NCBI GenBank assembly: GCA_001784585.1
Contig: MFRN01000035.1
Span: 42,925-106,924 of the forward strand
DNA length: 64,000 nt
Direction: 5' to 3'
Source of the DNA: Candidatus Melainabacteria bacterium RIFCSPLOWO2_02_FULL_35_15
GTDB taxonomy: Bacteria; Cyanobacteriota; Vampirovibrionia; 2-02-FULL-35-15
Part shown: one piece after another, positions 62,438-64,000 of the stretch
Numbering within the stretch: the first letter of the stretch is position 1
How the letters are laid out: every line of letters begins with the position of its first letter
The notes under the pieces: generated by a model
What the model was told of the DNA's origin: nothing
Seen by the model: the letters and a program-made list of their open reading frames with translations, nothing else
Database searches by the model: none
Translations under genes and position numbers: made by a program

Positions 62438-62460
62438 TCTACTTCAAAAGCTCTCTGCCA
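62438..62460. repeat. 23-bp direct repeat, copy 1, flanking ORF6N cassette 2
   Basis: tctacttcaaaagctctctgcca is identical to 63072-63094. That copy lies within the 3' end of the 63059.. gene. Confidence 0.85.
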
Positions 62461-62473
62461 AGATGATTTTATA

Positions 62474-63010
62474 TTAAGAGCTATTAATCTGAAACCCGAT
62501 TTTACTTTTTGATTTTTCGGGTGGTAGCATTAATTGGCGTATTGCTTTAAAAATCGATTGGATTTCTTCATCATGTTTTTCTATTTTATGTTCAAGTTGA
62601 TTTAACTTATGCGCTAACTCTCTATGAGCTGATAATGTTTTTCTAAGCTTTACAAAAGCTCTCATTATCGCAACATTTACAATTATTGCCCGTTTACTCT
62701 GCAGAACACCTGACAACATAGCTACTCCTTGCTCTGTAAATGCATATGGAAGATATTTTATGTGTTCTCCTTGCTTTAAGATCACAAATTGTGATCTTAA
62801 AAGTTTTCCTTCTTTTTTAGTCAGCTGGAACATAAAATCTTTAGGAAAACGTTCTTTATTTCTTTTTACTGCCTGATTTAACACACTAGTTGAAACTTCA
62901 TAAAGTCCAGCTAAATCCTTATCTAACATAATCTTCTTGCCTCTAATAAAATGTATTATGCTTGCTATTTCTTCTTGTGATAATGAATTTGGCATGAAGC
63001 GATTGTACAC
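62474..63010 (-). CDS. ORF6N-domain protein (paralog of 20325..20831)
   Basis: 178 aa. IMLDKDLAGLYEVSTSVLNQAVKRNKERFPKDFMFQLT and YAFTEQGVAMLSGVL are present. Confidence 0.7.
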   Translation of the reverse strand: MYNRFMPNSLSQEEIASIIHFIRGKKIMLDKDLAGLYEVSTSVLNQAVKRNKERFPKDFMFQLTKKEGKLLRSQFVILKQGEHIKYLPYAFTEQGVAMLSGVLQSKRAIIVNVAIMRAFVKLRKTLSAHRELAHKLNQLEHKIEKHDEEIQSIFKAIRQLMLPPEKSKSKIGFQINSS

Positions 63011-63029
63011 AACAAGTGTTAAATTCCAT

Positions 63030-63044
63030 GTAACCTAGGGTTAC
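63030..63044. promoter_or_regulatory. Palindromic putative operator GTAACC-TAG-GGTTAC upstream of the second ORF6N gene
   Basis: Same inverted-hexamer motif as 20909-20923, about 20 nt upstream of the ORF6N start codon. Confidence 0.5.
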
Positions 63045-63058
63045 ATGCGTTTCAAAAC

Positions 63059-64000
63059 TTAATAATTTATTTCTACTTCAAAAGCTCTCTGCCAGGGTAA
63101 TTCAAACCGAACATCCGGATTTTTCAGATCTAACAGTTTTGAAAATCTTTGTACAAAGGGTTTCATTTTTTTATTTACTTCCTCTTCGGTAATTTCTTCA
63201 TGCCTGATTTTTGCCTGATAAGCGTAGTCATCCAAAAATCTTGTCAGTAAGCACTTTTTAAAGGCAGCTTCATTAAATATTTTTCTCTTTTCAGAGATCC
63301 ATCTGTTTACACCTGTTGCCAGAGCACTTCCTGTACTATTTGCACAGGTGTTCCATCCTGAATAAGCATATAATTTATCCCAACTTATATTTGAATTTAG
63401 CAATGCTTCTACTAGTTTTGGCTCTGCACCATTAGCATAAGCTAAATCAATTATTATAAAAGGCCTGGTTTCTCTTTCTAGTTTTTTTATAAGTATGTCT
63501 ATATTTTGTTTAGTGTCAGACGGTTCAATTTTAAATATGTGATCTCCCTGTACAGAATCAGCACAATGTATAAAACAAACAATGTCAGAATCTTTAAAAT
63601 CTTTTATTTCAATTCCCAAAGTTTCAACCTGACTTATAACCGAGTTATAGATTGTATTTGATTCATATCGTGCAATCTGATTTTTCCCTTCAGTGCTGTT
63701 AAAATACAAAGAAACTGATGGCTTATATTCTGATTTTTTTAATATAGCTTTTGTCAATAAAACAAGCGGAATCTCATCTGTTCCGGAAATTACTTTTGCA
63801 CAATTTGAACAATTCTGATTTTTAATTTGTTTTTTTATGTATTCAGCTTCAATTACATTTACTCCATATTTTCCTGAATCATCGCATGAAAAAATCAGAT
63901 ATTCAAAACAATTTTCATGAATTAATTTTAACCATTGCAGATTTACTGCAAAGTTTTTTTCTCTGTGTGCTTTATAATCAGTAAGAATATCCGGTGGTAT
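63059..64000 (-). CDS. Hypothetical protein, 5'-partial (continues beyond the window end)
   Basis: The reverse-strand frame is open from position 64000 through the track ORF 63059..63757 (...IPPDILTDYKAHREKNFAVNLQWLKLIHENC...MTKAILKK...). The last 8 codons (WQRAFEVE) are duplicated in the 23-bp repeat at 62438-62460. Confidence 0.55.
   Translation of the reverse strand: MPPDILTDYKAHREKNFAVNLQWLKLIHENCFEYLIFSCDDSGKYGVNVIEAEYIKKQIKNQNCSNCAKVISGTDEIPLVLLTKAILKKSEYKPSVSLYFNSTEGKNQIARYESNTIYNSVISQVETLGIEIKDFKDSDIVCFIHCADSVQGDHIFKIEPSDTKQNIDILIKKLERETRPFIIIDLAYANGAEPKLVEALLNSNISWDKLYAYSGWNTCANSTGSALATGVNRWISEKRKIFNEAAFKKCLLTRFLDDYAYQAKIRHEEITEEEVNKKMKPFVQRFSKLLDLKNPDVRFELPWQRAFEVEINY
63072..63094. 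repeat. 23-bp direct repeat, copy 2, flanking ORF6N cassette 2
   Basis: Identical to 62438-62460. Confidence 0.85.

What the first reader, a model, noticed from the sequence alone, without database searches (positions are those of the whole stretch)
62438..63094. Second ORF6N cassette of almost the same size, inserted 8 codons from the 3' end of a gene with a 23-bp duplication
The sequence tctacttcaaaagctctctgcca occurs at 62438-62460 and 63072-63094. The second copy encodes the C-terminal residues WQRAFEVE of the minus-strand gene that ends at 63059. The first copy is an orphan duplicate on the far side of the cassette, just after the gap stop codon. The inter-repeat segment is 611 bp, against 608 bp for cassette 1. 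The architecture is the same: ORF6N gene on the minus strand with a GTAACC-N3-GGTTAC palindrome at its 5' side. Two independent insertions with the same cassette content and size but different flanking repeats argue for a mobile unit that generates or carries long target duplications, possibly restoring gene 3' ends on insertion.
Basis: seen in the sequence. Interest (0 to 1): 0.8.

Follow-up and report, generated by a model that had tools for sequence, protein, structure and literature searches.

The report
Integrase-less gene cassette inserted at gene end
A 611-bp piece of DNA carrying one small DNA-binding gene (a candidate anti-phage gene) was spliced into the last codons of a housekeeping gene in a groundwater Melainabacterium, bringing its own replacement gene end, and it is one of three such recombinase-less cassettes in this 64-kb window.

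Summary
An exact 23-nt direct repeat (62438-62460 / 63072-63094) brackets 611 bp holding one ORF6N gene. Relatives have the empty site: DUF4127 and gap converge with overlapping stops, so this is a true insertion. Cassette 1 (31-nt repeat) also has an empty site in a relative whose flanking gene is 95% identical.

The repeat is probably not a staggered-cut target duplication. The functional DUF4127 copy ends with a foreign tail (EINY*) typical of another Melainabacteria clade. The orphan copy keeps the native tail with its stop overlapping the gap stop. That is an attL/attR-like hybrid, as left by a single reciprocal crossover between a cassette-borne gene end and the chromosome.

Repeats around related cassettes vary from 19 to 128 nt, usually cover a gene or tRNA end, and can form arrays. 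The cassette encodes no recombinase. ORF6N models as a winged-helix-like domain plus a long helix and matches the PADLOC candidate PDC-S05. Host homologous recombination is my preferred driver, but this is inferred.

Two extras:
- A toxin-antitoxin cassette at 9246-10074 has the same architecture.
- Most of 95 ORF6N genes examined carry a ~27-bp palindrome at codon ~70 that covaries with the putative recognition helix, a likely self-binding site.

The parts
62438..62460 (.). Left copy of the exact 23-nt direct repeat (attR-like). It is the core of the orphan DUF4127 3' end.
62422..62460 (-). Orphan copy of the DUF4127 3' end. It reads WQRAFEVEIRVV*, with its stop overlapping the gap stop as in empty-site relatives. 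This is the native tail of the recipient lineage.
   Evidence: L017 and L018 have DUF4127 and gap overlapping by 4 nt.
62461..63071 (-). Inserted segment (cassette 2, 611 bp). In gene orientation it runs: foreign DUF4127 tail, 12-nt spacer, operator palindrome, upstream region, ORF6N gene, 13-nt trailer.
   Evidence: Window left flank + one repeat + right flank equals the uninterrupted L017 site.
62474..62995 (-). ORF6N gene, 173 aa from the ATG (gene callers use this start). Predicted winged-helix-like DNA-binding domain plus a long C-terminal helix. Full-length match to PADLOC candidate defence family PDC-S05.
62775..62801 (.). Perfect 13+1+13 palindrome TTTAAGATCACAA-A-TTGTGATCTTAAA inside the ORF6N CDS at codon ~70. 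It is a family-wide feature and a likely self-binding site of the encoded dimer.
63028..63046 (.). Palindrome ATGTAACC-TAG-GGTTACAT upstream of ORF6N. It is an operator-like Melainabacteria motif, not an element terminus.
63059..63071 (-). Cassette-borne replacement tail of DUF4127 (Ile-Asn-Tyr-stop). It resembles native tails of another Melainabacteria clade.
63072..63094 (.). Right copy of the 23-nt repeat (attL-like), inside the functional DUF4127 gene (codons WQRAFEVE).
63059..64000 (-). 3' part of the DUF4127 gene (468 aa in full; it runs off the window). This is the target gene of the insertion.
61388..62425 (+). gap (GAPDH), convergent neighbour. Its stop originally overlapped the DUF4127 stop.
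20287..20956 (-). Cassette 1. Exact 31-nt repeats at 20287-20317 and 20926-20956 flank 608 bp. The segment holds ORF6N (20325-20825, 166 aa), an internal palindrome at 20603-20631 and an operator palindrome at 20909-20923. It sits in the intergenic region between the 191-aa and 548-aa genes.
   Evidence: Empty site in L199.
9246..10108 (+). Third cassette with the same architecture but different cargo. An exact 24-nt repeat lies at 9246-9269 and 10051-10074. The left copy is in the transketolase 3' end. The cargo is a Phd/YefM-like antitoxin (9363-9623) and a PIN toxin (9620-10039). The orphan transketolase end (10040-10108) reads YGKSKEKIAEAAKEMIRRKLKD*.
   Evidence: Empty site in L201.

Best explanation
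Cassette 2 is a small, non-autonomous mobile gene cassette. It consists of an upstream region with an operator-like palindrome and one ORF6N gene. Its product is predicted to be a DNA-binding protein of the candidate anti-phage family PDC-S05.

The cassette did not transpose. It was integrated by one reciprocal crossover (Campbell-type insertion-duplication) between the chromosomal 3' end of DUF4127 and a copy of that gene end carried on the incoming DNA. The incoming DNA was most simply a circle looped out of a donor genome by recombination between the same repeats. Exchange took place inside the 23-nt block of perfect identity.

The product has two hybrid sites. The functional gene is host body + core + donor tail (EINY*). 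The orphan is core + native tail (EIRVV*), still overlapping the gap stop. The gene stays intact, and the site is regenerated so that further cassettes can stack.

The cassette encodes no recombinase. I favour the host's homologous recombination machinery acting on short identity blocks, with spread between related genomes by DNA uptake.

Shown: the insertion polymorphism, the hybrid junction, the variable repeat lengths, the array, and the absence of any detectable catalytic domain.
Inferred: the circular intermediate, the RecA dependence, and the direction of transfer.
For: 1. The repeat is exact and non-random.

2. Empty sites exist. L017 (DUF4127 80% identical) and L018 (70%) have DUF4127 and gap overlapping by 4 nt. 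The L017 sequence equals window left flank + one repeat + right flank. L184 has no ORF6N match and gap lies within about 18 nt of the DUF4127 match.

3. The junction is hybrid.
- The functional tail EINY* (GAAATAAATTATTAA) matches the native tail of the L185/L204/P0006/P0007 clade (EIKC*, ELTC*, EINC*; 13/15 nt to the L204 orphan).
- It does not match the window clade's tail (EVIVT* in P0002/P0003).
- The orphan tail EIRVV* has the same length as the window clade's tail (four residues after EVE) and, like it, a stop overlapping the gap stop.

4. The same cassette with the same junction sits at the same site in two other lineages, L099 and L204 (ORF6N 86% and 90% identical). The DUF4127 fragment on L099 is only 70% identical to the window's. 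The window's nearest relative in the protein search is unoccupied.

5. Synonymous divergence between window and L099 is 0.65 for ORF6N, against 0.95 for gap and 1.26 for DUF4127.

6. L204 is an array: DUF4127, ORF6N cassette, orphan DUF4127 end, 135-aa gene. L185 has only the 135-aa gene at this site.

7. Among 85 ORF6N genes surveyed, eight stood clear of the tandem arrays with a flanking-repeat score of 19 or more: 19, 23, 29, 31, 32, 34 and 128 nt, plus a weak, mismatch-rich 44-nt match (20; L084) inside a multi-copy locus. Shuffled controls scored 9-16. The L020 repeat (32 nt) also lies in a two-copy locus and was not examined. The repeats I examined cover ends of genes:
- the 5' end of a ComF-like gene (L047);
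- the 3' end of a 941-aa gene (L043);
- the 3' two-thirds of tRNA-Leu, as a ~78-nt diverged orphan (L049).

8. The toxin-antitoxin cassette in the window has a perfect 24-nt core. The orphan transketolase end is diverged on both sides of it, with synonymous and conservative changes (Leu TTA/CTT, Arg AGG/AGA, stop TAG/TAA). This suggests both copies evolved as functional gene ends in different lineages.

9. No enzyme was detected. The only other ORFs listed inside the 611-bp segment are 38 and 33 aa. Pfam finds ORF6N alone above its curated threshold. Foldseek matches to the AF2 model (pLDDT 74) are all weak (E>0.2), mostly Ski/Dachshund and winged-helix regulators, with no recombinase or transposase fold.

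10. The perfect cores of 23, 24 and 31 nt in the window lie near the minimal identity that RecA-type recombination needs. That figure, about 23-27 bp in E. coli, is from my own knowledge and was not tested here.
Against: - No circular form or excision junction was seen. The one exact-pattern scan for the repeat in the metagenome collection returned nothing, although that collection appears not to hold even the source contig.
- All 9 contigs with the identical GAPDH carry the cassette, so there is no within-population polymorphism.
- The model explains spread between homologous sites. It does not explain the first event that put a copy of a gene end on the far side of a cassette.
- The occupancy pattern and the dS difference also fit one ancient insertion with precise repeat-mediated losses. 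The dS estimates rest on about 100-170 codons.
- Only about 10% of ORF6N loci show flanking repeats. Either most insertions are old or most arrive by another route.
- In the toxin-antitoxin cassette, the tail next to the functional gene (AREVIKRKLIN) looks more like the relatives' native tails (AREVIKKK...) than the orphan's does. That is the opposite of the simplest prediction.
- A trans-acting site-specific integrase cannot be excluded, because I did not screen the genome.
Confidence: 0.55

Rival explanations
1. The cassettes are att-flanked elements without an integrase (CIME-like, or the cargo-only remains of integrative elements). A site-specific tyrosine or serine integrase encoded elsewhere in the genome, or on a helper element, inserts and excises them. 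The repeats are attL and attR.
For: - The hybrid gene-end repeats are the classical signature of integrase-mediated integration into gene 3' ends.
- One family member sits in a tRNA-Leu gene with a partial tRNA copy on the far side.
- Stacking of cassettes separated by partial target copies (L204) mirrors tandem accretion at att sites, as described for tycheposons (read).
Against: - Three cassettes in one 64-kb window use three unrelated repeats and targets, so each would need its own integrase.
- No shared core or arm-type motif lies next to the repeats. The only shared motif is an operator also found at non-mobile genes.
- Cassettes are uniformly minimal (0.6-0.8 kb) in every repeat-flanked case. 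Repeated decay of large islands would be unlikely to give that.
Confidence: 0.2
2. The repeats are true target-site duplications. An unknown trans-acting enzyme cuts the target with a long, variable stagger and joins a linear cassette. Gap filling then duplicates 19-130 bp.
For: - Cassette 1's two copies are identical over 31 nt with sharp edges, and both flanks are native.
- The repeat in the window and in L099 starts at the same base, TGGCAG.
Against: - The functional DUF4127 tail is homologous to another clade's native tail rather than to cassette sequence.
- The window's cassette side contains AATAAA, which in L099 is part of the repeat.
- Identity drops abruptly from 23/23 to an unrelated tail rather than decaying evenly.
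- Repeat lengths span 19-128 nt.
- I saw no conserved element ends or terminal inverted repeats by eye (not scanned for).
Confidence: 0.1
3. There is no current mobility. A single ancient insertion occurred in a Melainabacteria ancestor and was inherited vertically. Gene conversion keeps the repeat cores identical, and lineages such as L017, L018 and L184 lost the cassette precisely through the repeats.
For: - The same left repeat boundary and the same cassette junction appear in the window, L099 and L204.
- The cassette is fixed in all 9 contigs sampled for this species.
- Within each genome the two cores share lineage-specific synonymous variants: GAAGTA in the window, GAGGTG in L099.
Against: - dS of ORF6N (0.65) is lower than that of both flanks (0.95, 1.26).
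- The functional tail in the window is of another clade's type, while the orphan tail has the length and stop position of the window clade's type.
- L204 shows a cassette entering an already occupied site.
- ORF6N genes 50-68% identical occur in a wide range of bacterial phyla and in viral contigs.
Confidence: 0.1

Closest known systems
Insertion-duplication (Campbell-type) integration of circular DNA that carries a fragment of a chromosomal gene. It is used routinely for gene targeting in naturally competent bacteria (my own knowledge).
   Same: - A single crossover in a short homologous segment duplicates that segment on both sides of the insert.
- If the fragment contains the gene's end, one intact gene copy and one orphan end result.
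- No element-encoded enzyme is needed.
   Different: - Here it appears as a natural, recurrent route for accessory genes.
- The homology blocks are very short (19-31 nt of perfect identity).
- The segments are from diverged lineages, and the circle itself has not been observed.
Cis-mobilizable elements (CIMEs) and other att-flanked elements that lack an integrase. Also tandem accretion at tRNA or gene 3' ends, as in Prochlorococcus tycheposon islands (bioRxiv 10.1101/2020.12.28.424599, read).
   Same: - Cargo is flanked by a full and a partial copy of the target gene end.
- Successive insertions push older ones outward, separated by partial target copies (L204).
- The cargo is enriched in defence or addiction genes.
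   Different: - No integrase lies in or next to the cassettes.
- Three different targets occur in 64 kb.
- Units are single-gene sized (0.6-0.8 kb).
- Targets include an intergenic site and a gene's 5' end.
Integron gene cassettes
   Same: Small units, mostly of one gene, with varied cargo including toxin-antitoxin and defence genes. They stack in arrays at one site.
   Different: - I saw no attC-type structured site at cassette ends.
- No intI or attI was seen in the stretches examined.
- These cassettes appear to carry their own upstream regulatory region.
- They are flanked by duplicated target sequence, which integron cassettes are not.
ORF6N / KilA-N / Bro-N family DNA-binding proteins (phage anti-repressor-like) and the PADLOC candidate defence family PDC-S05
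   Same: - PF10543 match (E=4e-34).
- Full-length match to PDLC04856 (E=1e-59).
- PHROG 'anti-repressor' families.
- One PDC-S05 representative reduced plating of T7 and T5 about 1000-fold in E. coli (bioRxiv 10.1101/2024.09.26.614923).
   Different: - The tested representative was described as carrying a Virulence_RhuM domain, so it may belong to another branch of PDC-S05.
- No function has been tested for this 170-aa subfamily.
- I found no mention of the conserved palindrome inside the gene in the papers my searches returned.

Membership tests
Pfam ORF6N (PF10543) | Significant match to the domain model above the curated threshold. | tested here: met
   117.3 bits against a cut-off of 27.8 for cassette 2, and 110.3 bits for cassette 1.
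PADLOC PDC-S05 (candidate single-gene defence system) | Full-length HMM match to a PDC-S05 model. | tested here: met
   PDLC04856: E=1.3e-59 over residues 4-165 of 173, profile positions 6-172 of 177.
PADLOC PDC-S05 (candidate single-gene defence system) | Confers protection against phage. | not testable with these tools
   There is only a literature report for one representative, described as RhuM-type.
Insertion sequence / DNA transposon | Element-encoded transposase. | tested here: not met
   ORF6N is the only substantial ORF; the other two listed inside the segment are 38 and 33 aa. Pfam finds ORF6N alone above threshold. The weak fold matches (E>0.2) are mostly winged-helix or Dachshund-like, with no transposase or recombinase fold.
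Insertion sequence / DNA transposon | Conserved termini or terminal inverted repeats, and a target duplication of fixed length. | tested here: not met
   I saw no shared termini in seven repeat-flanked cassettes examined by eye. Repeats range from 19 to 128 nt.
Integron cassette | An attC recombination site at the cassette's 3' end, and an adjacent intI/attI platform. | tested here: not met
   Only 7-31 nt lie between the end of the ORF6N coding region and the repeat, with no structured site. The array in L204 is bounded by DUF4127 and gap. There are no Rfam matches.
Integrative element with site-specific integrase (genomic island / prophage type) | Hybrid attL/attR made of the target gene end plus an element-borne copy. 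| tested here: met
   A foreign tail is on the functional copy and a native-type tail on the orphan. A partial tRNA-Leu copy is present in L049.
Integrative element with site-specific integrase (genomic island / prophage type) | An integrase gene within the element. | tested here: not met
   The 611-bp insert holds only ORF6N. The same is true for cassette 1 and, with its own cargo, for the toxin-antitoxin cassette.
Cis-mobilizable element (CIME) | An att-flanked element without an integrase, mobilised by a cognate integrase in trans. | tested here: inconclusive
   The structure fits. No cognate integrase was sought across the genome, and three unrelated att-like repeats in one window argue against a single helper.
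Homing endonuclease gene | An encoded site-specific nuclease that cuts the empty allele. | tested here: not met
   No nuclease domain was found by Pfam or by fold search. Flanking duplications are not a feature of homing (my own knowledge).

The most novel reading that the evidence does not exclude
ORF6N cassettes may be the visible tip of an undescribed class of recombinase-free 'hitch-hiker' cassettes. In this reading they move between genomes by looping out and re-entering through short copies of conserved host gene ends that they carry with them. The ORF6N protein would actively promote this by binding the palindrome in its own coding sequence, for example by stalling forks or pairing DNA molecules to stimulate exchange at the nearby repeats. 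The gene, its self-site and the borrowed gene end would then together form a minimal self-promoting mobile unit.
Probability: 0.1. Interest if true: 0.85.

Novelty: new variant of a known kind. Interest (0 to 1): 0.6.

Why it matters
If correct, single accessory or defence genes can behave as mobile units without any recombinase of their own. They would carry a short copy of a conserved host gene end and rely on ordinary homologous exchange. That would explain three things: how genes such as ORF6N/PDC-S05 reach many phyla, why they pile up at particular junctions between core genes, and why such insertions do not inactivate the target.

It also gives a simple sequence signature for finding such cassettes in metagenome-assembled genomes. 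The signature is a perfect 19-31-nt core inside two diverged copies of a gene end, 0.6-0.8 kb apart.

Separately, the palindrome inside ORF6N genes covaries with the putative recognition helix. This gives a directly testable DNA-recognition code and a first functional handle on a very large, uncharacterised family of candidate anti-phage proteins.

Tried and rejected
1. The GTAACC-N3-GGTTAC palindrome as the cassette's recombination site.
- It looked attractive because TAACC-N3/4-GGTT occurs at only three places in the window, exactly the three repeat-flanked cassettes.
- I rejected it because the full motif ATGTAACC-N3-GGTTACAT also sits about 35 nt upstream of a conserved 68-aa membrane-protein gene in L001, L184 and L195, and elsewhere, often in pairs.
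- Two degenerate copies are also native to the empty site of cassette 1. It is more likely an operator.

2. The internal palindrome as an RNA or ssDNA hairpin involved in mobility.
- G-T and A-C mismatches are about equally frequent, so there is no strand-specific wobble (my tally).
- The half-site covaries with recognition-helix residues. A double-stranded protein-binding site is the better reading.

3. A general habit of this genome to duplicate targets at any insertion. The 2.3-kb AAA_14/PIN insertion next to cassette 1, absent in L199, has no flanking repeat.

4. ORF6N as a nuclease or recombinase. Pfam, the solved-structure sequence search and Foldseek gave no support.

5. Known RNA families in the cassette: none.

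6. A search for empty or circular forms by exact match to the 23-mer in the metagenome collection found nothing. The collection seems not to contain the source contig, so this is uninformative.

7. Similarity between the cassette's AACGCATGTAACC and the native gap end AGCGCATGTAGCC (11/13), read as evidence for a microhomology-mediated first insertion. It is suggestive only. The reading frames do not correspond, so I do not rely on it.
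Full report

Yes. The 23-mer TCTACTTCAAAAGCTCTCTGCCA occurs exactly twice in the 64-kb window, at 62438-62460 and 63072-63094. No further match appears even with three mismatches, and none is expected in shuffles. The 611 bp between the copies hold one substantial ORF on the minus strand.

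- From the ATG that gene callers use, this ORF is 62474-62995 and encodes 173 aa. It matches Pfam ORF6N at E=4e-34.
- Upstream of it lies the palindrome ATGTAACC-TAG-GGTTACAT at 63028-63046.
- The right repeat copy encodes WQRAFEVE of a DUF4127 gene that ends ...EINY* at 63059.
- The left copy lies 12 nt beyond the gap stop. On the minus strand it continues as WQRAFEVEIRVV*, and its stop overlaps the gap stop.
- Cassette 1 is as described: exact 31-nt repeats at 20287-20317 and 20926-20956, 608 bp between them, an ORF6N gene and the same type of palindrome.
- The two ORF6N proteins are only 52% identical, so these are not recent copies of one element.

The organism is a groundwater Melainabacterium. 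Source names include 'Candidatus Melainabacteria bacterium RIFCSPLOWO2_02_FULL_35_15'.

**2. Are these insertions?**

Both are.

Cassette 2:
- In L017 (DUF4127 80% identical) and L018 (70%, GCA_023250195.1), DUF4127 and gap converge with a 4-nt overlap and no gene between them.
- The L017 sequence equals the window's left flank + one repeat copy + right flank.
- In L184 no ORF6N match was found, and gap lies within about 18 nt of the DUF4127 match.

Cassette 1:
- In L199, whose 548-aa protein is 95% identical, the 191-aa and 548-aa genes are separated by 258 nt.
- That intergenic sequence aligns base for base with window 20141-20317 + 20957-21125.

All nine contigs that encode the identical GAPDH carry cassette 2. 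It is therefore fixed in the sampled population.

**3. Is the repeat generated or carried?**

Several observations argue against a staggered-cut target duplication.

*(a) The tail after the repeat is foreign.*
- The functional DUF4127 copy continues as GAAATAAATTATTAA (EINY*).
- Native DUF4127 tails in the window's own clade are EVIVT* (P0002, P0003). The orphan copy's tail, EIRVV*, has the same length (four residues after EVE) and, like the native tails in L017 and L018, a stop overlapping the gap stop.
- Tails of the type EIxC*/EINx* are native to other clades: P0006 ELTC*, P0007 EIKC*, and many EINV/EINL/EINII.

*(b) The same cassette with the same junction occurs at the same site in two other lineages.*
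- L099 carries an ORF6N 86% identical, with tail EINC*. L204 carries one 90% identical, with tail EIAC*.
- In L099 the repeat is 29 nt and includes AATAAA. In the window, AATAAA lies only on the cassette side.
- The window's arrangement is therefore derived from an L099-like one by exchange inside the shared core.

*(c) Occupancy does not follow relatedness.*
- L099's DUF4127 fragment is closest to P0006 (78%) and only 70% identical to the window's. The window's nearest relative in the protein search is unoccupied.
- Synonymous divergence between window and L099 is 0.65 for ORF6N, against 0.95 for gap and 1.26 for DUF4127. The samples are small, so this is supportive only.

*(d) L204 is an array.*
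- Its order is DUF4127(...EIAC*), ORF6N cassette, orphan RSFEVEINC*, then a 135-aa gene.
- L185 has only that 135-aa gene between DUF4127(...EIKC*) and gap.
- The site is thus a hotspot that is regenerated by each insertion.

*(e) Repeat length varies across the family.*
- Among 85 ORF6N genes fetched from many phyla, eight stood clear of the tandem arrays with a flanking-repeat score of 19 or more: 19, 23, 29, 31, 32, 34 and 128 nt, plus a weak, mismatch-rich 44-nt match in the multi-copy locus L084. Shuffled controls scored 9-16. The 32-nt case (L020) also lies in a two-copy locus and was not examined.
- The repeats I examined cover the 5' end of a ComF-like gene (L047), the 3' end of a 941-aa gene (L043) and the 3' two-thirds of tRNA-Leu(CAG), the last as a ~78-nt diverged orphan (L049).

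These are the features of attL/attR-type hybrid sites made by a reciprocal crossover between the chromosome and a copy of the target's end carried by the incoming DNA.

**4. A third cassette shows the route is not specific to ORF6N.**

A scan of the window for isolated exact repeats found one more pair. TAAAGAAAAAATTGCTGAGGCTGC occurs at 9246-9269 and 10051-10074.

- Between the copies lie a Phd/YefM-like antitoxin gene (a weak, below-threshold Pfam match) and a PIN toxin gene.
- The left copy is in the 3' end of the transketolase C-subunit gene (...YGLTKEKIAEAAREVIKRKLIN*).
- The right copy starts directly after the toxin stop and reads YGKSKEKIAEAAKEMIRRKLKD*. This is a complete homologous gene end.
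- The orphan has a perfect 24-nt core and diverges on both sides. About half the differences are synonymous or stop-preserving (Leu TTA/CTT, Arg AGG/AGA, Lys AAG/AAA, TAG/TAA).
- That pattern suggests two gene ends that evolved under selection in different lineages. It does not look like a decaying duplicate.
- A close relative (L201) has the empty site.

By contrast, the neighbouring 2.3-kb AAA_14/PIN insertion, absent in L199, has no flanking repeat.

**5. What does the cassette encode?**

- The ORF6N family is very large: all 8000 scored candidates were significant.
- Members 50-68% identical occur in Omnitrophota, Nitrospirota, Planctomycetota, Verrucomicrobiota, Proteobacteria, Acidobacteriota, Patescibacteria and others, and in viral contigs. 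This suggests frequent horizontal transfer.
- The protein matches PADLOC candidate defence family PDC-S05 over its full length (E=1e-59) and PHROG 'anti-repressor' families.
- One PDC-S05 representative was reported to reduce T7 and T5 plating about 1000-fold. It was described as carrying a RhuM domain.
- The AF2 model (pLDDT 74) has an alpha/beta N-terminal domain and a long C-terminal helix. Foldseek matches are all weak (E>0.2) and are mostly Ski/Dachshund and MarR-type winged-helix proteins, with no recombinase or transposase fold.
- The cassette therefore encodes no detectable enzyme and cannot move itself.

**6. Most likely mechanism.**

I favour Campbell-type insertion-duplication.

1. 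Recombination between the flanking repeats in a donor loops out a circle holding one core, the donor's gene tail and the cassette.
2. After transfer, a single crossover occurs in the longest block of perfect identity with the recipient's orthologous gene end.
3. The product is host gene body + core + donor tail, then the cassette, then core + native tail.

This accounts for the hybrid junction, the intact target gene, the sharp block of identity, the variable repeat length, the reuse of one site by different cargos and the arrays.

The enzyme is not encoded in the cassette. The perfect cores of 23, 24 and 31 nt lie near the minimal identity RecA-type recombination needs (my own knowledge), so host homologous recombination is the simplest driver. 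A trans-acting integrase (CIME-like) is the main rival. The first event that creates a repeat at a new site remains unexplained. No circle was observed.

**7. The palindromes.**

*The upstream motif.* ATGTAACC-N3-GGTTACAT is shared by Melainabacterial ORF6N cassettes. A degenerate form is present in the toxin-antitoxin cassette.
- It also lies about 35 nt upstream of a conserved 68-aa membrane-protein gene and elsewhere, often in pairs.
- It is native to the empty site of cassette 1.
- I therefore read it as an operator, not as an element end.

*The palindrome inside the gene.* This one is more striking.
- In 95 distinct ORF6N genes, positions 2-13 on either side of a centre at codon ~70 are Watson-Crick complementary in 87-100% of genes. 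Complementarity falls to about 50% at positions 14-15 and to 19% at position 16.
- There is abundant covariation. Position 4 is A-T in 48 genes, C-G in 26 and G-C in 21, with no unpaired case.
- Viral copies have the palindrome too.
- Cassette 1 reads it in a different frame from cassette 2: ELITNCDRFKR against LLRSQFVILKQ.
- The encoded residues lie in the least confident loop of the model, with pLDDT below 50 at residues 70-76.
- The half-site covaries with the putative recognition helix: TCACAA with L-x-Q-A, TCGCAA with L-N-E-Q, TTCCAA with L-N-K-A, and TGCCAA with L-N-R-A. This holds even among tandem paralogues in one locus.

The simplest reading is that each ORF6N dimer binds a ~27-bp site inside its own gene. 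Phylogenetic non-independence was not controlled for. I found no link between this site and the insertion mechanism.

**8. Verdict.**

It is a new variant of a known kind: att-flanked insertion without an integrase, or natural insertion-duplication. The cargo is a widespread candidate defence gene. The mechanism is inferred, not shown.

Noticed in passing
window 9246-10108: A third repeat-flanked cassette with different cargo: a Phd/YefM-like antitoxin (weak Pfam match) and a PIN toxin. It is inserted at the 3' end of the transketolase C-subunit gene. It has an exact 24-nt core inside two diverged copies of the complete gene end. The relative L201 has the empty site.
   Followed up: partly
window 62775-62801 and 20603-20631; also L019-L103 and L104-L183: ORF6N genes across many phyla and in viral contigs carry a ~27-bp palindrome at codon ~70. 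50 of 98 genes have perfect arms of 10 nt or more, and in 95 distinct genes positions 2-13 pair in 87-100%. Covariation is extensive. The half-site tracks residues of the putative recognition helix (Q-A, E-Q, K-A, R-A). This is a likely self-binding site of the encoded protein.
   Followed up: partly
L040 2370-4730; also L020, L024, L028, L035, L055, L065, L084: Two to four ORF6N matches lie close together in these loci. In L040 four tandem paralogues have near-identical C-terminal halves, different N-terminal domains and different internal palindromes. This suggests diversification of binding specificity on a shared dimerisation module.
   Followed up: partly
L185 1934-2380 and L204 600-803: The DUF4127/gap junction is an insertion hotspot. 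An unrelated 135-aa gene with no Pfam or PADLOC match occupies it in L185. In L204 an ORF6N cassette and this gene are stacked, separated by an orphan DUF4127 end.
   Followed up: partly
window 20960-20974 and 20990-21004; L001 12732; L184 1556, 1606, 7681, 7712; L195 682, 721; L018 2989: The motif ATGTAACC-N3-GGTTACAT recurs in Melainabacteria, often in pairs 30-50 nt apart. It lies about 35 nt upstream of a conserved 68-aa membrane-protein gene among others. It is probably the operator of an unidentified regulator. Whether ORF6N proteins bind it is unknown.
   Followed up: partly
window 16750-19360 (approximate; the AAA_14 gene is 18064-19356; = L007 4836-6877): Relative to L199, the window lineage has an extra ~2.3 kb between the 191-aa gene and pfk. 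It holds an AAA_14/DUF4143 ATPase, a PIN_10/DUF5615 protein and a 138-aa gene. This insertion has no flanking repeat.
   Followed up: partly
window 255-900 vs 4010-4650, and 1222-2110: Two stretches 3755 bp apart share long exact segments of up to 68 nt and look like paralogous genes. A block of tandem repeats with periods of 87-273 nt lies at 1222-2110. Neither was examined.
   Followed up: no
L049 2791-2874 and 3623-3700: In a Thermodesulfobacteriota MAG, an ORF6N gene sits immediately after tRNA-Leu(CAG). A ~78-nt diverged copy of the tRNA's 3' two-thirds lies on its far side. This looks like a classical tRNA att site, but the unit holds only one gene.
   Followed up: partly
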